IMG/VR virus record: IMGVR_UViG_3300020478_001251
Span: 1-64,000 of that record
Reading direction: 5' to 3' (one strand)
Source of the DNA: a virus
Length of the DNA stretch: 64,000 nt
Of this stretch, positions 1,080-60,860 are shown piece after piece. The notes below the pieces were generated by a model that saw only the letters and a program-made list of their open reading frames with translations, was not told the origin of the DNA and did not search any database. Positions within the stretch are counted from its first letter, which is position 1. Each line of letters opens with the position of its first letter. Position numbers and translations under genes: made by a program.

Positions 1080-1700
1080 TTACTCGCCTCGGATTATTTT
1101 ATTAATTATATCTTCGGCCTTACAATATTGACCACAAGTTCTACCTTGTGTTTGAGATTTATCAACTCCCTCACTTAATGGATGCATAAAAGCACCATGT
1201 GTTGATGGATTACTTACGAAATCAAATGCGATTAATTCAAAATCTTTACCAACTTTCATCATTGGTTGTCCATTATCTTCCGAAACAGTCTCAACTGAAC
1301 CCATTCCACGAGAACTGATACCAAGTTTAATTCCATTTTTAAATAATTCTCTTAAAATGTTTCCACTTGGTGTTGTTAGTATTTCCACAGTCCCAACTAA
1401 ACTATCACCCTCAAAGTGCATTTCAGTTACATTATGTGATACATTTTGTAAATTAACTACCGAAGAGTCTGGATGGTCTAATTCACCAAGTGCTCTTTTT
1501 TGTTTTATAAAACCTTCATTATAATTCTTTGCTTCTCTTGTTAGTATCTCCATTGGATATACTCTACCATTTTGATTTTTAGCATCTGCTCTTTGTAATA
1601 CACCTTTAACAATTAACTTACCATTATTTTCTTTTAATGATTCTTGTATTTGTTGTGGTGATAAATCAAAAGGTATATAATCTACGATTAATTGTTTCAT
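1080..1700 (-). CDS. Prohead core protease (T4 gp21-like)
   Basis: Motifs GVLQRADAKNQNGRVYP, ALGELDHP, VSH, GISSRGMGS and DFVSNPS are typical of gp21-family proteases; head-module context. Confidence 0.95.
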   Translation of the reverse strand: MKQLIVDYIPFDLSPQQIQESLKENNGKLIVKGVLQRADAKNQNGRVYPMEILTREAKNYNEGFIKQKRALGELDHPDSSVVNLQNVSHNVTEMHFEGDSLVGTVEILTTPSGNILRELFKNGIKLGISSRGMGSVETVSEDNGQPMMKVGKDFELIAFDFVSNPSTHGAFMHPLSEGVDKSQTQGRTCGQYCKAEDIINKIIRGE

Positions 1701-4339: not shown

Positions 4340-4403
4340 CAAACACTCCAATTTTCTATACAATTTAGTATCATATATAAATATAAAAACTTCAAATAAA
4401 TCG

Positions 4404-6260
4404 TTATTTATCGGTCTTTTTATCTACAAATTCTTTATATTCTGATTCTATATCGTCTGTTACTTTCGTTTCCGTTATTATTTCAGCTGCCTTAGAAGAA
4501 TCTATTGATTTTTTAAGTGCATCATAATGAGCTAAAGCCATTTGGTTTTTTGATTTACCTAATGGATTTCTACCTCGAGCACTACCATCTTTATCATATT
4601 TTGATACTTCTTTTGGTCTACCAGCTCCTGGTTGGCCACCCTCAGGAGCCCCACCTTTGTCAAAGATTGAACCCATTGGTGATTCTTCAGTGTCTTGTTG
4701 TTCCCCATCTTCACCTGGCATCGTTGAGATTGATGCCAAATCACTTGGTGTTCCAACTGCTTCTTCACTGGTAACAGGGTCATTACCCTCAACAGCAATT
4801 TGTTCAAATCTAAATTTTTGTTTTTGGTCATCGACCAATTCTTTTTCTAATTCTTTAATATTATCATCTGAAAAATTAAATATATTTTTATAAATCCAAT
4901 CAGATGGTAGTAATTGATTATCTTTCATATCACGAGCAAGATTAACTTTATTACCCCACAATTCAAGTTTCTCTTGTTCGTAAATTGTAGATGGATTAGT
5001 TAGGTTTAATTCAAAGTTTACCAATTCTTCATCTGTATATCCTTGTGAATATAAATGAACAACTGCAATCTTTGTTAATTCACTAACTACAATTCTTTGT
5101 ATTCTTTCTATAGTTCTTGCAAACCTTACATCTTCTGCTGCAAGTGTTGCTTTACTTCCAAGTGATTCTTCATATCCTAAGAATGCTTTTGGAACATGAA
5201 GTGCTGCCAACATACGATTTTTTAAATACTCAATGTCATCAGTACTTTCATAAGTCATACCTGGTAGTGAATCAACTTGTGTTCCACTATCTCCACCACG
5301 AACTGGCATAAAGAAATCTTCAGTTAAATTCTGAATATTAAACTTCAAATTATAATCACCACTTGCTTCATCAATGAATGGTGTTTTCTTCATTTTGTTG
5401 ATAATTCTTTGCATATAGTTATCAACTTCATTTGGTGGTATATTTCCTATATCAATTTTAAATACTCTCTTTTCAGGTGCTCTCATGATTCTATGAATCA
5501 ACATAGCATCTTCCATCAATGTAACTTGTTTCCAAGTTTTACGAGCACTTTCTAACATTGATTTACCATAAGGTAAAAGATTACTATCACTTGCTAATCT
5601 AAAGTGTGCAATTTGGAAATTTTCAAAATCAATTCTTTTACCTTGACCAGTCGGTCTTGCAAAATATGGATGTGTAGTTTCCATCGCTTCTAAATAAAAT
5701 TTTACATAATAAGGATTCTCAGGGTCTTCTCCTTCTGAACGAAGACATTCATATGGTGATAGTGGAACTACATTTACAATACCATATTTATCCTTAACAT
5801 CTAAATATAAAAAGAAATCACCATACTTTGTTAGGTTACGAACCCATGGCCATAGATTGAATTCTATATTTAATATATCATAAAACAAGTTATGTAATAT
5901 TTCTCTAATATTATTATTATCACTTTTAATTTCTAAAACATCACCATAAGGATTTTTCATTGTAGATTCATCTGCATAGATATCCATTGCTGATGCAATG
6001 ATTGAATCAGCTTCCATAGTTTCATAATCTTTAAATAAACCTAATCTTGCGGCTTGTAATTGAGCAAATGTGGAATATCCACTATTCACCATATCTAATC
6101 CACTATGTAGTTTAGAATATCTATCTACAAGATGTGATTTCATTTGTCGTTGTACTTGGTCTGTATCGGCGATTTTTAATTTTTTACCACCTACATTTCT
6201 AACAATTACATTTGTACTAAATAATCGTCTTAGTCTACCAAATAATGATTTATCTGCCAT
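4404..6260 (-). CDS. Portal vertex protein (T4 gp20-like)
   Basis: LMEDAMLIHRIMRAPEKRVFKIDIGN, EDFFMPVRGG..GTQVDSLPG and DIEYLKNRMLAALHVPK match gp20 family motifs. Confidence 0.95.
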   Translation of the reverse strand: MADKSLFGRLRRLFSTNVIVRNVGGKKLKIADTDQVQRQMKSHLVDRYSKLHSGLDMVNSGYSTFAQLQAARLGLFKDYETMEADSIIASAMDIYADESTMKNPYGDVLEIKSDNNNIREILHNLFYDILNIEFNLWPWVRNLTKYGDFFLYLDVKDKYGIVNVVPLSPYECLRSEGEDPENPYYVKFYLEAMETTHPYFARPTGQGKRIDFENFQIAHFRLASDSNLLPYGKSMLESARKTWKQVTLMEDAMLIHRIMRAPEKRVFKIDIGNIPPNEVDNYMQRIINKMKKTPFIDEASGDYNLKFNIQNLTEDFFMPVRGGDSGTQVDSLPGMTYESTDDIEYLKNRMLAALHVPKAFLGYEESLGSKATLAAEDVRFARTIERIQRIVVSELTKIAVVHLYSQGYTDEELVNFELNLTNPSTIYEQEKLELWGNKVNLARDMKDNQLLPSDWIYKNIFNFSDDNIKELEKELVDDQKQKFRFEQIAVEGNDPVTSEEAVGTPSDLASISTMPGEDGEQQDTEESPMGSIFDKGGAPEGGQPGAGRPKEVSKYDKDGSARGRNPLGKSKNQMALAHYDALKKSIDSSKAAEIITETKVTDDIESEYKEFVDKKTDK

Positions 6261-6272
6261 TTTTTACCTCAC

Positions 6273-7847
6273 TTACAAGAGCCACTTTAAAGACTCTTTC
6301 TCTTTATCTTTACCAATTTCCCAATCCCAAGATTCATTCTTGTTTTCATCGGGTGTATAAAGTCCATCAATATCTAACATTTTATTGAGAGACTTTTTTG
6401 TTAATTCAATTCCTTCAGTTCGTAATCTTAATGCGGTATCACGAACCCATAAACCGATAGCAAATGACATAACTAAATCATCATTGTATCCTACCATTGC
6501 TTCGGCTCTATTATTCTTATAAATAAAAGTAAATAATTCATCAATCAAACGATTACTACGAACTATTACACTTCCATCTCTAAAATATTCCTCTAACTTT
6601 GCAATAATTAAAGGTCTTGTTCTGGCAGTAGTACTAAACCCTGCTACCATATTCTTTTCTTCTGCTCTATATCGATTATTTATTTGATGTTGTGTATCGA
6701 TATATTTTAAATCTTTACTTGTATAAAATAGATTAGGATATTCCCTATCTATTACTTGTTGGATGGTTGCCCAACCAATATTGTTGTTTTCTATAATTAG
6801 TAAAGCATCGTTATATTCCGTTGAAATACTCACTAACATATTACCAAAATCTTTGGTACTTAACCTACCTTTATATTCCGCTACTTGTTGAACACTCTCT
6901 ACATCGATAACATGAAATGCACTATAATCTGCACTATCACCTCTACCAACATCAGCACTCACAACATAATTTCGTGTATAATTTGGTTGTTCCCATATCC
7001 ACAAATTACCATCTATACCTCGTTTTTCAACAGGGTCTTGTACTTGTTTACTTCTACACTCCTCTAAAATCGGTCCATCAATTACTGAAGTTCCAGAAGT
7101 GATAAAATCACAATCACATTCTTGAGCCGCACCTTGTAATCCTAATAAGGTATCTTGTTCATCTCTCCACTCTTGTTCTCTATCAGGATGAACAGTCCAA
7201 TGAAGTTTAATATCATTAAACATTCCACGACCTTCTTCGGCCTCTACCCAAGTTCTGTGAAACCAATTACCCACACCATTAGGTGTTGAGAGTGCAATAC
7301 AACTACCACCCGTTGTAAGTGTTTGTTGTGATGCAGTCCATATCTCATCAATCTTATCAATGAACGCCGCCTCATCTAATATCAATAATGATAGAGCTTC
7401 AGAACGAGCCGCTTCTGGACCACTTGCACTTGCTTTTATTTGTGAACCATTAACATATCGAAGATTTAATTTATTATCTTCAACACATCGTTGTTTTAAC
7501 CAACTCGGTAAGTTGGCATGCATTACTCTTACTTTTGTAACTAAGTTTTTTGCAGTATCTTGTTTTGTTGCAATAACCAAGATATTTTTATCTTGAAAGA
7601 ATGTCATCATCCATAAAGAATATCCAGCAGTTAATGTTGATATTCCTAACTGGCGTGCTTTCAGAATAATATTAAATCTCTCTTTAGTAAATTCCTCTAC
7701 AGTCTTCTCTTGAAAGTCATACAAATCAAAAGGTATCTTGCCTTTTATTGGATGTTGTATCATACAATACTTCTTTAAAAAGTAGACTGGGTCTTTTGCA
7801 CACTTTGTGTACTCTTTTTTAATTACTTCTTTTATCTGAGTTGCCAT
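6273..7847 (-). CDS. Terminase large subunit (T4 gp17-like)
   Basis: Walker A-like KARQLGIST, Walker B LLILDEAAF, STPNG, nuclease ADVGRG..DYS and NDDLVMS. Confidence 0.95.
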   Translation of the reverse strand: MATQIKEVIKKEYTKCAKDPVYFLKKYCMIQHPIKGKIPFDLYDFQEKTVEEFTKERFNIILKARQLGISTLTAGYSLWMMTFFQDKNILVIATKQDTAKNLVTKVRVMHANLPSWLKQRCVEDNKLNLRYVNGSQIKASASGPEAARSEALSLLILDEAAFIDKIDEIWTASQQTLTTGGSCIALSTPNGVGNWFHRTWVEAEEGRGMFNDIKLHWTVHPDREQEWRDEQDTLLGLQGAAQECDCDFITSGTSVIDGPILEECRSKQVQDPVEKRGIDGNLWIWEQPNYTRNYVVSADVGRGDSADYSAFHVIDVESVQQVAEYKGRLSTKDFGNMLVSISTEYNDALLIIENNNIGWATIQQVIDREYPNLFYTSKDLKYIDTQHQINNRYRAEEKNMVAGFSTTARTRPLIIAKLEEYFRDGSVIVRSNRLIDELFTFIYKNNRAEAMVGYNDDLVMSFAIGLWVRDTALRLRTEGIELTKKSLNKMLDIDGLYTPDENKNESWDWEIGKDKEKESLKWLL

Positions 7848-8230: not shown

Positions 8231-8245
8231 ATATATAAATATACT

Positions 8246-9333: not shown

Positions 9334-12300
9334 CTATCCAAATTTCAAACTACCCAATATCTGATTGATTGGTGCGAATGCTCCTGTGAACTTATATATC
9401 TTTCCTTTATATTTGAAAACTATACCTTCACTTGGAACTATTGCATTTGTTCCACCAATTGCATGTAATTTCTCTATTTGTATTTTTAATTGTTTTAATT
9501 TTTGAACATTACCACCACCCTTTAAATCATTTAAAGCTTTGATAACTTCTTTTCTCATTTTTTGAACAGTCAAATCTGGTGATACTGCAATAAATCCTGA
9601 AATATTTTTTAATATTTCTGCACCAACTGAAAAGAATAATATCTCAAATGGTTTTATATTTTGTTTAAACAACTTTATATGATTTATTTTATCCGTACTT
9701 AATATCCAATCTAAAAATTTTGGATTATTTTTAAAATCTTTTTTAATCATTCCAATCTTATATGACTTATCAAAGAATGCCCAACGATTAACCAAACTAA
9801 CATACTGATTTGGTTTTAAACTTACCTTAAATTGTTTAGATGCATTGAACACATATTCTCTCCAATACGCTTCGTGATAACTACCTAATGTATCCGAATC
9901 TTTCAATGCATATTGTTTTTGTAATCTTAATAATTGTCCTAAAAATTTACTTTTCATCTTACCAAAGTTTTGAACTTTTGGTACAGTCAAAAAATTAGGT
10001 TTACCAATTTTAAAAACACCTTGTATATGTGCATTTATTTGTCTAATCATACCTGCTAACATTCTAGCACTATCCTTTGGTTGTCCAATCGGTTTACCAC
10101 TTACATCATACTCTAATGTTCCATGAAATACTATTTCACAAACATCATAATCAATAACATTTGCTGTTGCTGGATACATAATCTCTAAATTCATCCATCT
10201 TTTACCATTTCCAAAAACTTTTTCTTTTTGTGCAACACTTAAACCACCTATTGCTTTTTCTAAATCACTCATCGCAAAAACAAAAGCTTTCTTAATATTA
10301 CCTCTACCAGCAAACATACTTTTTATACCACTCGTGGTAGGTGCAGTTTTACCATAATTTTTTAAATGGCCTTTGTTACGAGCTGCTCTTAATTTCCCAT
10401 CAACCCAACTTATCATTAAGTTTTGTCCGTCAAGTTTCTCTGTAACTCCATCTTCTCTGGCAAGTGTTCCACCTAACCCATTAATAATTATCTGTTTCAA
10501 ATCTGAAAATGTAAGATTATTGTCATCAAAAGGATGAGACATATGTCCATAAGCTCCACCCATAAGTAGTAACTCCTTTGTTTCGTTTGTTATATCTATT
10601 TGTTCTTGTATTTTTTTAATTTTTTCTACACCCTTTGTTGATGTTTTCATATCATGTGTTAATGAATCTTTCATCTTAGCAGTAGGTTTACCGAAGAATT
10701 TTACAATTTCCCATCCCAATTTCTTTGCCATATTTGTCATATGTGCTCTGTATTTTGGAAATGGTTTATCTACACTATCTTCATTAGATGTTTTCTGATT
10801 TATTGTTTTACCAAATGTGACTGTATCTACTCTATCTTGTACATAAGTAAAATCATATCCAGGGTCAGTTGCTCTATCATAATTTACAATATCATCAATC
10901 ATATCCCATCCTAAAATTTCTGCATGTCTTGGTGATACTCGTTTATAATCTTTAAAATCATTAAAGAAATCATATAAACCCTCATCATCTAAATCACTTG
11001 CATTAAAATGTGCCCCATGTGCACTTACTTCTTTTACTAATTTTTTTACTGATGGTTGATTATAAAATTCAAATAATTTTTTAAACTTATTTGTCAACAT
11101 ATTGTAAACACCTTGATTATAATAACCAAATAATTTTTTAAATATTTTAGGTCTATCTTCTTCTTTAACTTTAGGTGAACCCAAAATATTTCTCATTGTA
11201 GTACCTGATATTTCATTACCACCAATTTTCATACTAACATGCGGAGCAACCATATAATACCCATGCTCTTCATGTCCTTTTAAATTATTTCTATTTTTAT
11301 TAAAATCTTGGAAATAAGATAATCCACCTGTTTTCTTTCTACCACCTTTTAATCTACCTGCATCTTTCTTACCAAAAATATAAACAACTGCAGTAGTTTC
11401 TGGGTCGAATTTTTTAAGTAATGAGGCAGCTACTAATGGTGATTTTTCAAAGACAATACGACTCTTAGGAACACCCATCATAGACATATGACGAGCTTTT
11501 TCCGCAAAGTTCATTGGGTGTCTTGGTAACGATTTAATATTAGATGTGGCTATATATGCTATATCAACCTTAGATTGTAACCATTTAAAAGTCTTAAAAT
11601 GGTGAGGCCCAAACGGCTGAAACCGTCCACCATAAACACCTACTATTGTTTTAATTTTTGATTTCTTTTCATTCAAATTGGTTGCATTATCCCCACTTTC
11701 TATACTTGAATATACAACATTTTCCATATATAAGTCAAGCTTTTTTTCAAGATTTTCTACTGGTTCATAACCTCTTTTCTTTTTGTTTTTCGTTGTTTGG
11801 TGTCCAGGTTTATTATGTGTAGTTCCATCATCATCTCCATCATAAGTGTCTGGTTCTGCTAATTTGCCCATAGTACCTGAACCTTGAGAACCAGCGTGAT
11901 GTCCTGAAAAAGATTTTTCTATATCTGTACCTGGTTCATCTTTTACTTTATTTCCCTTTTTAATTTTATCTTTTACCTTATTTGGTAATGAAGCTTCTGC
12001 TCTTTGTTGTCTTAATTTTTTCTTCCACTTCTTTCTACCTTTTGCACTTGGTGATGGAATTACTCCAGCAGGTGCACCAAACTCTTCACCTAAAAACTTT
12101 TTCGTTTCTAAATCTTTTATCTTATCACCAATCTGTCTTCCTCTTAATCCAATAAACTCATCACCACCAACCTTAACTGATAATTTAAATGTTGATAATT
12201 TTTTAAAATCTTTTCCAATCATTTTACCATATTGTAGAATTTGTAGTGGTGTTAAAGAAGTTTTCTCTTGTGCCTTTTTTACCATATAAATGTCTCGTGG

Positions 12301-14253
12301 TTTAAAACTATTTAGATAAACTAAAAATTGAATGTTACTAACTTCTTTACCACTATACTTTAATAAGTTCAACACCTTTCCTAATCTCTGTACTTTATTA
12401 CCTCTTAAAATAAATGATAAAAATAAAATATAATCCTTGACATTTGGATAAGGTTTTTGTAACTTTAAACCTGGAAATATTTGTTTTGTAAATCCAAACT
12501 TATCACAAGCCTCCATAAATAATTTAGATGATTTCCCTTTCTGAATTGCCTTTATAAACTCTTCCCTAATTCTTTCCCCACTTACACCATGTAAACTTGG
12601 ATTCTTTAATAAAGCTATTTCTGTTTCTTTATCCATCTTACCACCAACTACTGCTTGAAATCTTAATGCTCGTAACTTTCTTAATGGGTCTTCATCAAAT
12701 CTTCTTTTAGGACTACCGACTGTTTTAATTATTTTTGCTTTTAAATCTTTTAATCCACCAGTTAAATCTACAACTTGATTAGTTCCTATATCATAGAATA
12801 ATGAATTGATTGTTAAATCTCTACGATTAACATCACCTTTTATATCTGAAAAATCTACTGCGGTTGGTCTTCTACCTCTACCAATATCTTTTCTAAATGT
12901 AGCAATCTCGTGTCCACCCACAACCACTACTCCAAATGATTTACCTACTTCATATGTTTTGAATCCACCTTGTTTTGCAATCTTCAATACTTCATCTGGT
13001 TTTGCATCTGTGGCTAAATCGAAATCTTTTGGTGCTTTACCAAGAATTGCATCACGAACTGCTCCACCCACGATATATAATTGTTTTTTATTTTTCCTAA
13101 ATAATCTATACAACCCTTTAATATCACCAGGAACTTTTAACATAATTCTATTATTTGATTCTGCAACAACATCCGTATCTTTAATAGCACTTTTTTTCTT
13201 TTTCTTATCTGTAGTAACATAAGTATCATATTTATCTGCTGGTGAATGTTCGTATTGTCTAATTTTTAAATTTAATTTAGATTTATAATCTTTTGGTAAT
13301 GTATTTTCAATTCCTAAAAACTTAACTGCTCCTGGTATCAAATATAAAGTCATTTCTCTTTTATTTAAATTCATCATAACTTGACTTGAAGTCCATAATT
13401 TATTTTGAGCCCTAACTAAATCATACTTAGCACCTTTATTTTGAGTATGATTATAAAACGATGGAAATACTTTTTTATAGTCATCCGTTTTATCTATAAT
13501 ATCCATTGCATTTTTCATTCTCAGCTGTGAAGATAATTTATCAGGACCTCTTTGATATCCTTGTTCTGGGTGTTCTATTCCATGATTAGTTCTAACGATT
13601 GATGATTTATCTATATTATGAATTTTAACTAATGGTTTAGTTCTACTTGTATTTTCAATAACCACTACCTTTTTACCATCACTTACAATTGTATGTCCTT
13701 TAACACCACCTTTAAATTTTACAAGTGAATCTACAACTTTTTTTAATGTTTTCTTTCCTAATGCCTCACGAATTCTTTCTCCATCTTTAGACATTGCTTT
13801 CTTTTTCTTTGCTTTATCAAAATCTTTTTCATCTCTTTTTACAAATAATGCTGAATTAACCAATCCTATTCCATAAGAATTCATACCTTCTGACCAGTCT
13901 GTATCTTGGTCTATTACATAACAAACTTCAACACCATAACCATTTAATTCCCTAACAACTTTTAAATTTGGATTATAATTTCTATCACGATTTTTTCCAA
14001 TTACAACATCATCACCGAATTTTTTTGAGAATGCAACGCACTCATCCACTTGTTCTTCTTTAGGAACAACTCTAAATTTTAATGCCGGCCTATCGTTGAT
14101 AAGTAAATCACCTTTTTCATTCCATTTGATAGATTTAATCTTAACTTTTTTATTTTTAAATCTACCCATCTTGACTGTATCACCAATCTCAATTGGTAAA
14201 TCTACACTCTCATCGATAAGTGGCTTGATTAACCATTCTGTTAATTGAGTCAC
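9334..14253 (-). CDS. Multidomain polyprotein: Ntn-hydrolase + CCA-adding enzyme + cytidylyltransferase-fold + RNA-ligase-like (DUF6267-like)
   Basis: Probable GTG start at 14253, just after the upstream stop. Ntn: CVAF...GKNRDR, EGMNSYGIGLVNS, RTNH. CCA: VGGAVRD..DFDLAT, RRDLTIN, EDPLR, ERIREE. HIGH-like: GGRFQPFGPHH, ISGTTMR. Ligase: EKLDGQN, NLEI, EGIVFK, YKFTG. Confidence 0.85.
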   Translation of the reverse strand: MTQLTEWLIKPLIDESVDLPIEIGDTVKMGRFKNKKVKIKSIKWNEKGDLLINDRPALKFRVVPKEEQVDECVAFSKKFGDDVVIGKNRDRNYNPNLKVVRELNGYGVEVCYVIDQDTDWSEGMNSYGIGLVNSALFVKRDEKDFDKAKKKKAMSKDGERIREALGKKTLKKVVDSLVKFKGGVKGHTIVSDGKKVVVIENTSRTKPLVKIHNIDKSSIVRTNHGIEHPEQGYQRGPDKLSSQLRMKNAMDIIDKTDDYKKVFPSFYNHTQNKGAKYDLVRAQNKLWTSSQVMMNLNKREMTLYLIPGAVKFLGIENTLPKDYKSKLNLKIRQYEHSPADKYDTYVTTDKKKKKSAIKDTDVVAESNNRIMLKVPGDIKGLYRLFRKNKKQLYIVGGAVRDAILGKAPKDFDLATDAKPDEVLKIAKQGGFKTYEVGKSFGVVVVGGHEIATFRKDIGRGRRPTAVDFSDIKGDVNRRDLTINSLFYDIGTNQVVDLTGGLKDLKAKIIKTVGSPKRRFDEDPLRKLRALRFQAVVGGKMDKETEIALLKNPSLHGVSGERIREEFIKAIQKGKSSKLFMEACDKFGFTKQIFPGLKLQKPYPNVKDYILFLSFILRGNKVQRLGKVLNLLKYSGKEVSNIQFLVYLNSFKPRDIYMVKKAQEKTSLTPLQILQYGKMIGKDFKKLSTFKLSVKVGGDEFIGLRGRQIGDKIKDLETKKFLGEEFGAPAGVIPSPSAKGRKKWKKKLRQQRAEASLPNKVKDKIKKGNKVKDEPGTDIEKSFSGHHAGSQGSGTMGKLAEPDTYDGDDDGTTHNKPGHQTTKNKKKRGYEPVENLEKKLDLYMENVVYSSIESGDNATNLNEKKSKIKTIVGVYGGRFQPFGPHHFKTFKWLQSKVDIAYIATSNIKSLPRHPMNFAEKARHMSMMGVPKSRIVFEKSPLVAASLLKKFDPETTAVVYIFGKKDAGRLKGGRKKTGGLSYFQDFNKNRNNLKGHEEHGYYMVAPHVSMKIGGNEISGTTMRNILGSPKVKEEDRPKIFKKLFGYYNQGVYNMLTNKFKKLFEFYNQPSVKKLVKEVSAHGAHFNASDLDDEGLYDFFNDFKDYKRVSPRHAEILGWDMIDDIVNYDRATDPGYDFTYVQDRVDTVTFGKTINQKTSNEDSVDKPFPKYRAHMTNMAKKLGWEIVKFFGKPTAKMKDSLTHDMKTSTKGVEKIKKIQEQIDITNETKELLLMGGAYGHMSHPFDDNNLTFSDLKQIIINGLGGTLAREDGVTEKLDGQNLMISWVDGKLRAARNKGHLKNYGKTAPTTSGIKSMFAGRGNIKKAFVFAMSDLEKAIGGLSVAQKEKVFGNGKRWMNLEIMYPATANVIDYDVCEIVFHGTLEYDVSGKPIGQPKDSARMLAGMIRQINAHIQGVFKIGKPNFLTVPKVQNFGKMKSKFLGQLLRLQKQYALKDSDTLGSYHEAYWREYVFNASKQFKVSLKPNQYVSLVNRWAFFDKSYKIGMIKKDFKNNPKFLDWILSTDKINHIKLFKQNIKPFEILFFSVGAEILKNISGFIAVSPDLTVQKMRKEVIKALNDLKGGGNVQKLKQLKIQIEKLHAIGGTNAIVPSEGIVFKYKGKIYKFTGAFAPINQILGSLKFG

Positions 14254-14254
14254 T

Positions 14255-15268
14255 TTACCACTTCCTACATGACCAATAACGAGCCTTATGTCTCGGGCCT
14301 GGATTATCACAATTGTGTCGTGCTCTAAAAGACTTTCTTGCCTTTGGATTAGATTTTCTAATTCTCATAGTTTTATCTTTACCACCTGCCCCAAAATTAA
14401 CTTTAACTACATTACCAGCGGGATTTTTTACATATACTTTAAACTTTTTTACATCACCTTGCATTGGCTTACCAAGTTTTACTTTACGACCTTGATATTC
14501 AGCTTCATTTAATTCTTTAGTTCTAAGGTATTCAAAGGTATATCCATATCCTTTACCTTCTGATTCATAAAAGATTTCCATTTCTTCCTTTACACAATTA
14601 GGAACTTTTCTACCATTTTTATCTTTCATTCCATATTGTTTATATCCTACCCAACAAGCTTCGTTTGTTGTAGTTTTTACAGATTCTTTTTTAGATTTAT
14701 TACCCCAATTTTTTGCACCAACTTTTCTACATTTTACCAATGCACCACTAGCGTAAGCAGAAGGCCATACATCATAACGAGATTTTACTTTATGATAACA
14801 CGCATCTTTTTCACCAGCTGCCTCATCAAATTGAGCTTCCGTAATTGGTTTACCTACTAACTCTTCTAACTTCATTTTACTCTCCACTTTCGTTTTTACT
14901 CTAATGGGTGCTTTACCTTGTCCAGCAGATTTCTTACCACCACGATTAGCTTTATTTTGTGCTGCTCTTTTTCTACGAACTGCACTTGTTTTTTGTTTTT
15001 TACTCATACTACGAGCCTTTGATGCAGGAACACATTTAGCATACGCTTGTTTTTCACCACTTGTTCCACATTCAGGATGTTTACCACTTTTATCTTTCTT
15101 TCCGATATTCACCCATTTGTCTTTAAACCATTTTCTTAAATTTTCATTCGTAATATTATCGGCGATGAGTCTTTCTTGTAAGTCATTTTTAAGTCTCATC
15201 TTATCTCCTGATGACATTCTTAATCTTTTCTTTCCAATTTCTCTCGGTTCATCTATGTGAAATTCCAT
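14255..15268 (-). CDS. Array of small basic Cys-containing modules (DUF5872/DUF6321-like), putative internal head protein
   Basis: Modules LRKWFKDKWV..C, DACYHKVKSRYDVWPSAYASG..C, ACWVGYKQ..VPNCV and AEYQGRKV..RKSFRARHNC..ARYWSC, separated by TNE, ITE, FDE and LNE sites. DUF names recalled, not searched. Confidence 0.65.
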   Translation of the reverse strand: MEFHIDEPREIGKKRLRMSSGDKMRLKNDLQERLIADNITNENLRKWFKDKWVNIGKKDKSGKHPECGTSGEKQAYAKCVPASKARSMSKKQKTSAVRRKRAAQNKANRGGKKSAGQGKAPIRVKTKVESKMKLEELVGKPITEAQFDEAAGEKDACYHKVKSRYDVWPSAYASGALVKCRKVGAKNWGNKSKKESVKTTTNEACWVGYKQYGMKDKNGRKVPNCVKEEMEIFYESEGKGYGYTFEYLRTKELNEAEYQGRKVKLGKPMQGDVKKFKVYVKNPAGNVVKVNFGAGGKDKTMRIRKSNPKARKSFRARHNCDNPGPRHKARYWSCRKW

Positions 15269-15597: not shown

Positions 15598-15909
15598 TTA
15601 TCTCGGTGGTCTTAAATCCCAGGGCCCCCAATGTTCTGTTTGTAATAATTTTTTTGCCATTTCTAAATAAGTGTATTTATAAAGTTTATATGGTTTAACT
15701 GGTATCCCACCTAACTCATAATACTTCTTCTTATTCATTAGAACTTTTTTACCATTACTAAAATCTAATACTTGATTTCCTTTTTCAATCCAACAATGTC
15801 CAAAAGGTTTACCATCTGTTGCTAAGATTGCGACACCATGAACTAATTGGTAACCATCCTTACCAATCATCCATCTTCCATTTGCTGCGTAACAATCTCC
15901 TTTTGCCAT
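15598..15909 (-). CDS. Small transglutaminase/papain-like protein (Cys-His-Asp)
   Basis: GDCY...LVHG...GHCWIE...VLDFS spacing resembles minimal transglutaminase-like cores. Confidence 0.5.
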   Translation of the reverse strand: MAKGDCYAANGRWMIGKDGYQLVHGVAILATDGKPFGHCWIEKGNQVLDFSNGKKVLMNKKKYYELGGIPVKPYKLYKYTYLEMAKKLLQTEHWGPWDLRPPR

Positions 15910-17754: not shown

Positions 17755-17801
17755 AATATTCTCCAGTTAATTTAAAGTCTTATACACTTATAAATATAAA
17801 A

Positions 17802-28003: not shown

Positions 28004-28033
28004 CTTCATATATAAATATCTATAATCTCAATT

Positions 28034-43689: not shown

Positions 43690-43717
43690 AATATTTCCTA
43701 TGTTACACTTATAAATA

Positions 43718-44872: not shown

Positions 44873-44926
44873 TATAACTCCTTTAATATAAATATAAAAT
44901 TAAATCCTCTTAATGTTAATTATTTA

Positions 44927-60825: not shown

Positions 60826-60860
60826 TATAAATATCAAAATTTTAAAATTTACTATTTATT
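60826..60860. promoter_or_regulatory. Divergent pair of TATTTAT(A/T) promoter-like motifs
   Basis: tataaata at 60826-60833 (TATTTATA on minus, upstream of the tail fibre) and tatttatt at 60853-60860 on plus, upstream of the RHH gene. Confidence 0.55.

What the first reader, a model, noticed from the sequence alone, without database searches (positions are those of the whole stretch)
13160..14049. Ntn-hydrolase whose catalytic N-terminal Cys would be exposed by capsid-protease cleavage (VDE/C)
Seen: EEQVDE-CVAFSKKFGDDVVIGKNRDR, with the Cys codon at 14040-14038, followed by EGMNSYG and RTNH. Known: Ntn-hydrolases (C45/NRDE/choloylglycine hydrolase type) need a free N-terminal Cys and usually gain it by Met removal or autocleavage. 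Inference: the Cys sits exactly at P1' of a gp21-type site, so head maturation could act as the zymogen switch and the amidase would be active only in mature virions. The substrate is unknown; an acylated or peptidyl-tRNA adduct or a protein conjugate is speculative.
Basis: partly seen in the sequence, partly recalled or inferred. Interest (0 to 1): 0.8.

Follow-up and report, generated by a model that had tools for sequence, protein, structure and literature searches.

The report
Phage amidase primed by capsid protease
A large marine T4-like phage encodes a new kind of amide-cutting enzyme whose catalytic first residue sits exactly behind a cut site for the phage's own capsid-maturation protease, so the enzyme is probably switched on only inside the virus particle and then injected with an RNA-repair kit.

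Summary
Cys91 (codon 14040-14038, minus strand) follows V-D-E and opens a 294-residue domain. The domain folds with high confidence (pLDDT 91) as an Ntn hydrolase. Residue 1 of the model aligns with the nucleophile of isopenicillin-N acyltransferase, NAAA, acid ceramidase and bile-salt hydrolase (Z 16-21).

The domain lies in a 1639-aa polyprotein: leader, KOW-like module, Ntn, CCA-adding enzyme, cytidylyltransferase-like module, ligase-like module. The gene is 7.6 kb from a gp21-type (S77) prohead protease gene.

The family is large (459 cluster representatives at E<=1e-3), viral in every setting I could read, and has no Pfam, NCBIfam or PHROG model.

- In the T4-like branch the Cys always follows [LIVM]-x-E, the gp21 motif, even where the upstream sequence is unrelated.
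- The same motif precedes the other modules, which have no Cys.
- It also sits at the site homologous to T4 gp23 E65|A66 in the capsid proteins of these phages.
- A sister branch, in phages with a different protease family, has [KR]-x-[AGS]|Cys on an unchanged catalytic core.
- A minority have Met|Cys.

I therefore favour trans-activation by the prohead protease (about 0.55) over classical self-processing (about 0.25). Cleavage, packaging and substrate are all untested. The scan had already noted this polyprotein on the same window.

The parts
9334..14253 (-). Polyprotein gene (1639 aa from GTG 14253; the ORF listing gives 1658 aa from GTG 14310)
   Evidence: The start is inferred from AGGAAG 7 nt upstream and from the stop of the upstream gene at 14257-14255.
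14209..14253 (-). N-terminal leader MTQLTEWLIKPLIDE, ending in a gp21-type site (I-D-E|S); candidate capsid-targeting propeptide
   Evidence: The same kind of leader heads relatives whose first module differs: L007, L017/L021/L022, L149, P0009. pLDDT is below 50 for residues 1-18 of the precursor model.
14050..14208 (-). Small beta module (KOW/SH3-like) plus linker
   Evidence: Weak KOW hit, E 0.11. Strands at residues 26-52 with pLDDT 74-84; linker residues 63-68 are below 50. The module recurs in relatives, next to or apart from the Ntn domain.
14041..14049 (-). V-D-E, a gp21-type cleavage motif immediately before the nucleophile
   Evidence: conservation.
14038..14040 (-). Cys codon (TGC), the predicted N-terminal nucleophile
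   Evidence: Invariant column C1. Aligns with IAT C103, NAAA C126, acid ceramidase C143 and BSH C2.
13159..14040 (-). Ntn-hydrolase domain (294 aa), ending at a second gp21-type site V-A-E|S (13159-13167)
   Evidence: AF2 pLDDT 91, pTM 0.89; Foldseek and VIA matches; VAE at residues 382-384.
12286..13086 (-). CCA-adding tRNA nucleotidyltransferase module
   Evidence: Pfam PolyA_pol 3.3e-29 and PolyA_pol_RNAbd; phrog_2244 2.3e-57.
11668..11676 (-). L-N-E site 9 residues before the next module
   Evidence: 27 of 27 distinct upstream contexts in relatives carry [LIVM]xE 7-9 residues before this module.
11041..11640 (-). Cytidylyltransferase/NMNAT-like module (GGRFQPFGPHH)
   Evidence: Weak hits only: CTP_transf_like E 0.11 and arch_NMN_Atrans E 0.075. 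Conserved partner of the Ntn domain in relatives.
9337..10560 (-). Ligase-like module (EKLDGQN motif; DUF6267-like)
   Evidence: RNA_ligase E 0.038. Atlas neighbours carry PF19782 in 24% of members. No PDB sequence match.
1080..1700 (-). gp21-type prohead protease (Peptidase_S77)
   Evidence: PF03420 89.1 bits against a cut-off of 27; phrog_207 7.9e-52. Portal at 4404-6260 and large terminase at 6273-7847 lie between it and the polyprotein gene.

Best explanation
The domain is a cysteine Ntn amidohydrolase of a new, apparently virus-only branch of the AAT/C45-choloylglycine-hydrolase superfamily. It is made as an inactive internal module of a polyprotein. The polyprotein is made late and carried into the prohead, probably by the N-terminal leader. 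There the gp21-type S77 protease cuts it at [LIVM]-x-E sites placed before each module. The cut at V-D-E|C frees the alpha-amino group of Cys91, which every Ntn hydrolase needs for catalysis. The amidase, like the other modules, would thus become a free, active enzyme only in the maturing capsid, and would be ejected into the next host with the DNA.

Shown: the fold, the nucleophile position, the protease gene, and the conservation and placement of the motif.

Inferred: packaging, the identity of the cutting enzyme, and latency of the uncut form. Latency follows from the known Ntn mechanism.

Guess: the substrate is an amide-linked adduct of the translation apparatus, such as an N-acylated aminoacyl-tRNA. 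I put that at about 0.15.
For: 1. Fold and nucleophile. pLDDT 91. Foldseek top hit is IAT 2x1e at E 1.6e-9. VIA gives Z 20.7 to 3gvz, about 19 to NAAA, IAT and acid ceramidase, and 16-18 to BSH and PVA. Model residue 1 aligns with their nucleophiles.

2. An S77 protease gene lies in the same head module.

3. Motif before the Cys. Among close relatives (61-81% identity in the domain) the upstream sequence is unrelated and the modules are shuffled. Even so, 25 of 26 distinct junctions have [LIVM]xE flush against the Cys, against a background of 0.0136. Of 145 representatives with a locatable Cys, 53 have P1 Glu, and 51 of those 53 have L/I/V/M at P3. Of 146 callable IMG/VR loci, 103 are E-type, all with L/I/V/M at P3.

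4. The motif is not tied to the Cys. 27 of 27 distinct contexts have it 7-9 residues before the cytidylyltransferase-like module. 6 of 21 have it flush before the ligase-like module. Ntn self-cleavage cannot act at these places.

5. Positive control. The gp23 homologues of 5 of 5 E-type records have [LIV]xE at the column of T4 gp23 E65|A66. The gp21 motif L/I-X-E and the 65-residue gp23 propeptide are taken from PMC9026906 (passages).

6. Protease families differ between branches. S77 was found in 11 of 27 records and in 4 of 4 that were at least 90% complete. It was found in 0 of 13 records of the sister branch, which has [KR]x[AGS]|C. 6 of those 13 carry a different head protease, akin to phage G gp19. 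0 of 9 E/M-type records do.

7. The catalytic core does not explain the change of motif. 46 positions are conserved at 80% or more in both branches, all with the same residue.

8. The leader and the linker before the Cys are modelled as flexible, with pLDDT below 50.

9. In L149 the separate Ntn gene and the separate cytidylyltransferase-ligase gene carry related leaders ending L-G-E|C and I-G-E|Q. T4 IPII and IPIII likewise share one leader.
Against: - No cleavage, virion proteomics or activity data exist.
- The nearest structural relatives (IAT, NAAA, acid ceramidase, the 66.3 kDa protein) all activate themselves. PMC9140057 (abstract seen in the listing) calls auto-activation a hallmark of the superfamily.
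- The change from the E-type to the [KR]x[AGS]-type motif maps to a single clade (support 0.946, midpoint root). The match with protease family is therefore one evolutionary event, not many.
- In the sister branch P1 is small (Ala, Gly, Ser), as at classical self-cleavage sites.
- Met|Cys forms occur in T4-like phages that have S77: G041-G044 were 4 of 4, and L187 is another. The enzyme therefore need not be gated.
- Some leaders are only 4-8 residues long, shorter than T4's 10-residue targeting sequence.
- The leaders do not keep T4's aromatic residues at fixed positions.
- The leader type was found only on this polyprotein family in the loci held (5 of 6 regex hits), not on unrelated proteins.
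- [LIVM]xE is not enriched in the ORF as a whole (18 seen, 18.5 expected).
- One sister-branch record with terminal repeats (G029, 222 kb) showed neither protease.
- Most records are fragments.
Confidence: 0.55

Rival explanations
1. Classical Ntn self-processing. The Cys attacks its own preceding peptide bond once the domain has folded, in the cytoplasm and without the prohead protease. The [LIVM]xE in front of it is either a family-specific requirement of that reaction or serves only to separate modules.
For: IAT, NAAA, acid ceramidase and the 66.3 kDa protein are the best structural matches and occur in the PDB as precursor and self-cleaved forms. Auto-activation is called a hallmark of the superfamily in the abstract of PMC9140057 (listing). 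The sister branch has small P1 residues. Met|Cys forms show that no leader is needed for folding.
Against: Self-processing does not explain why P3 and P1 copy the gp21 motif. It does not explain why the same motif precedes modules that have no Cys (27 of 27 and 6 of 21). It does not explain why the motif changes wholesale in phages with another protease while all 46 shared conserved positions stay the same.
Confidence: 0.25
2. The Ntn domain is itself the polyprotein-processing peptidase. It cuts at its own N-terminus in cis and at the other [LIVM]xE junctions in trans. It would be the counterpart of the MPTase proposed for polyvalent proteins.
For: The domain occurs at the start, middle or end of polyproteins of up to 2792 aa. 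Iyer et al. 2017 (PMC5512222, passages) propose a resident peptidase that cuts polyvalent proteins into units. The family is distantly related to peptidase family C45.
Against: Many members are stand-alone proteins of 260-300 aa, with short leaders or none, and have nothing to process. The two branches would need opposite specificities, yet no conserved residue differs between them. The capsid proteins of the same phages carry the motif at the known gp21 site, so a protease of that specificity is already present.
Confidence: 0.08
3. The polyprotein is a cytoplasmic multi-enzyme that is never cut or packaged. The junction motifs are linker composition, and the Ntn module is inactive or has a non-catalytic role.
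For: Packaging was not tested. [LIVM]xE is common in this Lys/Glu/Ile-rich proteome. N-terminal matches also occur on proteins that are not packaged, such as the terminase, MATQIKE.
Against: 18 invariant residues, including the whole predicted catalytic set, are kept across 44 diverse sequences. That argues for an active enzyme, and an active Ntn enzyme needs a free N-terminal Cys. The exact offsets of the motif (0 before the Cys, 7-9 before the next module) are kept through module shuffling.
Confidence: 0.07

Closest known systems
Acyl-CoA:isopenicillin N acyltransferase (Pfam PF03417 AAT; MEROPS C45)
   Same: Best Foldseek hit (2x1e, E 1.6e-9). VIA Z 18.9 with model residue 1 on C103. Two distant relatives of the family hit PF03417 at 26.0 and 21.2 bits against a cut-off of 23.2. 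Ten percent of members of one neighbouring Atlas cluster carry it.
   Different: The window's domain does not match PF03417 even at E 10. IAT cuts itself; the Gly-Cys junction is recalled, not taken from a call. Here the junction is [LIVM]-x-Glu|Cys. This family looks viral only, is often one module of a polyprotein, and has no alpha-subunit-like prosegment.
NAAA / acid ceramidase / bile-salt hydrolase / penicillin V acylase (choloylglycine-hydrolase-type Ntn enzymes)
   Same: Same fold and the same position of the Cys nucleophile: Z 19.3 for NAAA, 18.9 for acid ceramidase, 16-18 for BSH and PVA. An Arg/Asp pair near residue 18-20 and Asn residues occupy comparable sequence positions. That comparison with the BSH catalytic set is recalled, not computed.
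   Different: No sequence-level match: profile search of the PDB gave 0 hits at E 10, and there is no PF02275 hit. Those enzymes hydrolyse lipid or bile-acid amides. Here the fusion partners are RNA-repair enzymes.
T4 internal proteins IPI-III and Alt (capsid-targeting sequence plus gp21 processing)
   Same: An N-terminal propeptide ending L/I-x-E is removed by the prohead protease, and the protein is then ejected into the host (PMC9026906, passages). T4 IPII and IPIII leaders were read from NC_000866. Same protease family. The motif is kept at the gp23 site.
   Different: In T4 the cut only releases the cargo from the core. Here the cut would also create the catalytic N-terminus, acting as a true zymogen switch. 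The cargo here is a 1639-aa multi-enzyme cut at several internal sites. The leader sequence is not homologous to T4's.
Polyvalent proteins of phages (Iyer et al. 2017, PMC5512222) and 'Swiss army knife' RNA-repair proteins
   Same: Many enzymatic domains sit in one polypeptide, next to virion genes, and are predicted to be packaged and injected. A sister-branch relative combines the Ntn domain with topoisomerase IB and the polyvalent-type InPase (PF18823). It lies beside a CCA + HAD_SAK_1 + 2H protein.
   Different: That paper proposes a resident metallopeptidase as the processing enzyme. 'Nucleophile' does not occur in its main text. No MPTase was found here. Processing is instead assigned to the prohead protease.

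Membership tests
Ntn-hydrolase superfamily | Four-layer alpha-beta-beta-alpha fold | tested here: met
   AF2 pLDDT 91, pTM 0.89. 94 Foldseek PDB matches at E<=0.001, all listed ones Ntn enzymes. VIA Z up to 20.7.
Ntn-hydrolase superfamily | Nucleophile (Cys/Ser/Thr) is the first residue of the first beta strand of the mature chain | tested here: met
   The strand starts at residue 2 of the model. Model residue 1 aligns with IAT 103, NAAA 126, acid ceramidase 143, BSH 2 and PVA 1. The Cys is invariant in 44 of 44 sequences.
Ntn-hydrolase superfamily | Precursor is converted to a form with a free N-terminal nucleophile; amidohydrolase activity | not testable with these tools
   Needs protein chemistry.
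Pfam PF03417 AAT / MEROPS C45 | Match to the family model above its gathering score | tested here: not met
   No Pfam family at E<=10 for the window's domain. One distant relative (L187) reaches 26.0 bits against 23.2, another (L183) reaches 21.2. This is a divergent sister group rather than a member.
Pfam PF02275 CBAH (C59) and PF05742 TANGO2/NRDE | Match to the family model | tested here: not met
   No hit. Structural similarity only: BSH Z 16-18, TANGO2 Z 15.6. The motif here is NRDR, not NRDE.
Substrates of the T4-type prohead protease (gp21, S77) | L/I(/V)-x-E immediately before the new N-terminus | tested here: met
   V-D-E|C. Conserved in 25 of 26 close junctions and 103 of 103 E-type loci.
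Substrates of the T4-type prohead protease (gp21, S77) | An S77 protease encoded by the same phage | tested here: met
   PF03420 89.1 bits at 1080-1700. 4 of 4 near-complete E-type records have it.
Substrates of the T4-type prohead protease (gp21, S77) | Incorporation into the prohead core through a targeting propeptide | tested here: inconclusive
   A conserved leader ending I-D-E heads the polyprotein and relatives that have other first modules. It is not homologous to T4's leader and was not found on unrelated proteins.
Substrates of the T4-type prohead protease (gp21, S77) | Observed cleavage and presence in virions | not testable with these tools
   No proteomic data for this uncultured phage.
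Phage polyvalent proteins (Iyer et al. 2017) | Several unrelated enzymatic domains in one polypeptide, encoded next to virion genes | tested here: met
   At least five modules. The gene is adjacent to terminase, portal and protease genes.

The most novel reading that the evidence does not exclude
Head maturation is used as a general zymogen switch. In a wide clade of large T4-like phages, and with a different protease and motif in a second clade of huge phages, the prohead protease dismantles packaged polyproteins. It also creates the catalytic N-terminus of an Ntn amidase. A potentially harmful enzyme is then active only in the virion and in the first moments of the next infection, as part of an injected tRNA/RNA-repair kit. 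This would be the first Ntn hydrolase activated in trans by a dedicated viral protease.
Probability: 0.45. Interest if true: 0.85.

Novelty: new variant of a known kind. Interest (0 to 1): 0.72.

Why it matters
Ntn hydrolases are textbook self-activating enzymes. One whose activation is handed to a capsid protease would be a new regulatory logic. It would also be a clean natural example of 'active only after packaging'.

The case points to a large, unannotated, apparently virus-only enzyme family (459 cluster representatives at E<=1e-3) that travels with CCA-adding, ligase-like and nucleotidyltransferase-like modules. That suggests an unknown amide-linked lesion or modification in the host's translation apparatus that phages reverse on entry.

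It extends the idea of T4 internal proteins to multi-enzyme cargo. It also gives a simple sequence rule, module boundaries marked by the resident protease's motif, for predicting virion-delivered enzymes in uncultured phages.

Tried and rejected
- Sequence-level annotation of the Ntn part found no family. Pfam and PHROGs gave no hit at all. NCBIfam gave only a stray flavodoxin hit at E 0.077. A PDB profile search gave 0 hits.
- Only two GenBank phages (Chryseobacterium MA9V-1 and MA9V-2) of 50,697 records carry the domain.
- I tested whether the sister-branch records are T4-like, HK97-like or giant eukaryotic viruses. S77 was found in 0 of 13. S78, Phage_capsid and Capsid_NCLDV were each found in 0 of 5. 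The NCLDV search had no positive control, so it says nothing.
- The T4 late-promoter motif TATAAATA is not enriched: 21 matches against 16.9 expected, and 22 of 100 shuffles reached 21. One sense-strand copy at 15674-15681 lies upstream of the three-gene run that ends in the polyprotein. I draw no conclusion on timing.
- The major capsid gene is not in this 83-kb fragment, so I used relatives.
- I looked for the leader on unrelated proteins of the fetched loci. 5 of 6 regex hits were this polyprotein family. That gives no evidence for a genome-wide shared targeting sequence.
- I looked for cellular homologues. Two alignment queries were unusable. A single-protein scan found none. A degenerate pattern gave 32 stretches, of which 3 were true relatives. 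One of the two with start-codon|Cys lies on a T4-like phage-like contig. I therefore found no clearly cellular copy.
- The ligase-like and cytidylyltransferase-like parts gave no PDB sequence match. I did not fold them.
- I did not use complex prediction, because protease-substrate pairs are a poor case for it.
- I considered and rejected a fusion with the upstream ORF by frameshift. The frames differ by one base, and a start with a ribosome-binding site is present.
- Supplementary files of the papers were closed. File S2/S4 of PMC5512222 and the supplements of PMC7824862 could list this domain under another name.
Full report
WHAT IS THERE. On the minus strand an ORF runs from 14310 (more likely from GTG 14253) to 9334. 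The Cys codon is at 14040-14038 and is preceded by V-D-E, as reported.

Pfam sees only a CCA-adding enzyme: PolyA_pol at residues 411-528, 3.3e-29, plus its RNA-binding part. PHROGs agrees (phrog_2244, 2.3e-57). The 293 residues after the Cys match nothing in Pfam (even at E 10) or PHROGs, only a stray NCBIfam flavodoxin hit at E 0.077, and nothing in a profile search of PDB sequences. Downstream there are only faint hints of a cytidylyltransferase/NMNAT fold and of an RNA-ligase motif.

The record is an 83-kb fragment of a viral genome, estimated 29% complete. It encodes a Peptidase_S77 (gp21-type) prohead protease at 1080-1700 (89.1 bits). Portal and large terminase lie between that gene and the polyprotein gene.

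FOLD. A search of 1.84 billion cluster representatives found 459 relatives at E<=1e-3, of which 167 were at E<=1e-30. I used 43 of the 150 listed proteins, the stand-alone ones of at most 331 aa, as an alignment. AlphaFold2 then gave a model with pLDDT 91 and pTM 0.89, in which the first strand begins at residue 2.

Foldseek's best PDB matches are isopenicillin-N acyltransferase (E 1.6e-9), CV2077, bile-salt hydrolases, TANGO2 and NAAA. VIA-align gives Z 20.7 (3gvz), about 19 (NAAA, IAT, acid ceramidase) and 16-18 (BSH, PVA). In every one of these, model residue 1 is aligned with the known nucleophile: IAT 103, NAAA 126, acid ceramidase 143, BSH 2. Eighteen columns are invariant, including C1, R18, D19, R20, N54, N62, N152 and R174. 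The fold and the role of the Cys are therefore well supported.

The nearest curated family is AAT/C45. The window's domain fails its model. One distant relative passes it (26.0 bits) and another falls just short (21.2 bits; cut-off 23.2). Ten percent of one neighbouring Atlas cluster carries it.

WHAT PRECEDES THE CYS IN RELATIVES. I could place the Cys in 145 of the 151 proteins in hand.
- P1 is Glu in 53, Ala in 70, Ser in 9, Gly in 7, the initiator Met in 2, and other in 4. Of those four, two were mis-picked Cys positions (one truncated protein, one E-type), and two (P1 Gln, P1 Val) were not checked further. One further mis-picked Cys sits among the Ala rows and supplies the lone Ala at P3.
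- With Glu at P1, P3 is L25, I16, V8, M2, T1, F1.
- With Ala, Ser or Gly at P1, P3 is K56, R29, A1.

Among 146 callable IMG/VR loci (some contigs appear under two locus ids), 103 are E-type with P3 L46, I34, V20, M3. Twenty are [KR]x[AGS]-type and 19 are Met|Cys. Four were mis-picked, and three of those are IEE|C.

In 48 distinct polyproteins whose Ntn domain is 61-81% identical to the window's, the modules are shuffled. Ntn can be first, middle or before the ligase-like part, and only the window has a CCA module. The sequence upstream of the Cys is unrelated from one architecture to the next. Yet 25 of 26 distinct junctions have [LIVM]xE flush with the Cys. The exception is T-S-E. The background is 0.0136.

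IS THE MOTIF THE PROTEASE'S? Five observations say yes.

First, the motif is not special to the Cys. 27 of 27 distinct contexts have it 7-9 residues before the cytidylyltransferase-like module. It lies flush before the ligase-like module in 6 of 21 and 19 residues before it in 8 of 21. Two contexts have none within 30 residues. The background for any place within 0-12 residues is 0.16. An Ntn-type acyl shift cannot cut there.

Second, the gp23 homologues of five E-type records have [LIV]xE in the column aligned with T4 gp23 E65|A66, 5 of 5. Three of these records carry polyproteins like the window's. The review PMC9026906 (passages read) gives L/I-X-E as gp21's motif, a 65-residue gp23 propeptide, and the 10-residue targeting leader of IPIII. 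I read that leader from the T4 record.

Third, the protease families differ between the branches.
- S77 was found in 11 of 27 records examined, and in 4 of 4 that were at least 90% complete.
- It was found in 3 of 5 further E-type records and 4 of 5 Met|Cys records.
- It was found in 0 of 13 records of the [KR]x[AGS] branch, including contigs of 288, 266 and 222 kb.
- In that branch a 501-aa protein two genes from the Ntn polyprotein hits a head-maturation-protease PHROG (1.4e-8). It resembles the proteases of Bacillus phage G, Rhodococcus phage E3 and cluster-C-like mycobacteriophages.
- Homologues of it occur in 6 of 13 records of that branch and in 0 of 9 E/M-type records.

Fourth, the two branches share 46 positions conserved at 80% or more, all with the same residue, and none is branch-specific. 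The enzyme's own pocket is thus unlikely to dictate Glu in one branch and Ala in the other.

Fifth, in a model of the precursor (pLDDT 84.8) the 18-residue leader and the six residues just before V-D-E are below pLDDT 50. They are predicted loose rather than docked. This is weak evidence, because alignment depth is low there.

LEADER. From GTG 14253 the protein begins MTQLTEWLIKPLIDE|S. Very similar leaders head relatives whose first module is different:
- MNKLTKWLIKPLIEE|D (L007, KOW-like first);
- MDRLVKQLITPFITE|Q (L017/L021/L022) and MNKLVESIIKPFIVE|Q (P0009), both cytidylyltransferase-like first;
- MKELIKFLVETLIGE|Q (L149).

In L149 the Ntn enzyme is a separate gene with the leader MPQLFDRIILGE|C. 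This is how a capsid-targeting propeptide would behave. However, the leader is not similar to T4's, and I did not find it on unrelated proteins.

AGAINST. The switch between motifs maps to one clade (support 0.946 with midpoint rooting; 137 domains of at least 200 aa, shorter ones dropped). The co-variation with protease family is therefore one event. All close structural relatives self-activate. Met|Cys forms exist in S77 phages, so gating is optional. One record of the sister branch with terminal repeats showed neither protease. Nothing here shows cleavage, packaging or activity.

FUNCTION. The Ntn domain is linked again and again with the cytidylyltransferase-like and ligase-like modules. 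They are fused in shuffled order or lie as neighbouring genes (L113, L117, L121, L149). In the sister branch the partners are CCA-adding enzymes (L095, L115, L139), and topoisomerase IB and a polyvalent-type InPase. The gene there lies next to a CCA + HAD_SAK_1 + 2H protein. The many invariant Arg and Lys residues suggest an anionic substrate. My best guess is removal of an amide-linked group from an RNA-associated substrate, for instance N-acylated aminoacyl-tRNA. This is inference only.

LITERATURE. Four full-text searches and term look-ups in PMC5512222 and PMC7824862 found no paper that joins an Ntn hydrolase with a prohead protease or a capsid-targeting sequence. 'Nucleophile' and 'NTN' do not occur in the main texts of those two surveys. 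Their supplements were closed.

EARLIER NOTES. I used these as leads only.

VERDICT. This is a new variant of two known things, Ntn zymogens and gp21-processed internal proteins. Interest 0.72.

Noticed in passing
L088:9959-16351 and neighbouring ORFs; proteins P0012-P0151 of the [KR]x[AGS] branch: A short motif, (R/K)-V-A-(S/A)-R-(Y/F/W), recurs at N-termini, C-termini and between modules of the sister-branch polyproteins and of neighbouring proteins. Its first three residues fit the [KR]-x-A| pattern seen before the Cys. It may be that clade's cleavage or docking signal.
   Followed up: partly
window 9337-11640 (-) and loci L003-L048: The cytidylyltransferase-like module (GGRFQPFGPHH) and the ligase-like module (GGAYGHM...EKLDGQN; Atlas neighbours carry DUF6267) form a conserved trio with the Ntn domain. 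The order of the three is shuffled among close relatives. Their function is unknown and there is no PDB sequence match.
   Followed up: partly
   Followed up: no
window 1080-1700 (-): The S77 protease's own N-terminus (MKQLIVDYIPFDLSPQQIQE|S) loosely resembles the polyprotein leader (M-x-Q-L ... I-x-P-F/L) and ends in a site of its own type.
   Followed up: no
window 14255-15268 (-): The upstream 337-aa gene starts MEFHIDE|P and ends one base before the polyprotein start. It hits several PHROGs of unknown function (phrog_727, 3.1e-37). Its C-terminal part resembles small basic modules seen elsewhere.
   Followed up: no
L156 (Chryseobacterium phage MA9V-1, record 126606-126944): The only S77-like match in this cultured carrier of the Ntn family is weak (29.2 bits against 27) and lies inside a 1349-aa open frame. 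That suggests a protease fused to other head-core modules.
   Followed up: no
window 4376-4383, 8234-8241, 17789-17796, 28011-28018, 43710-43717, 44887-44894, 60826-60833: Seven plus-strand copies of TATAAATA fall in intergenic gaps of the minus-strand genes, where the sense strand reads TATTTATA. This is possibly a promoter or terminator element of this phage. The total count is not above chance.
   Followed up: no
L070, L071, L076, L080, L081 (about 1.2-2.3 kb downstream of the stand-alone Ntn gene): The KOW-like N-terminal module of the window's polyprotein recurs as part of a separate gene near stand-alone Ntn genes (45-54% identity). This hints at a functional tie between the two.
   Followed up: no
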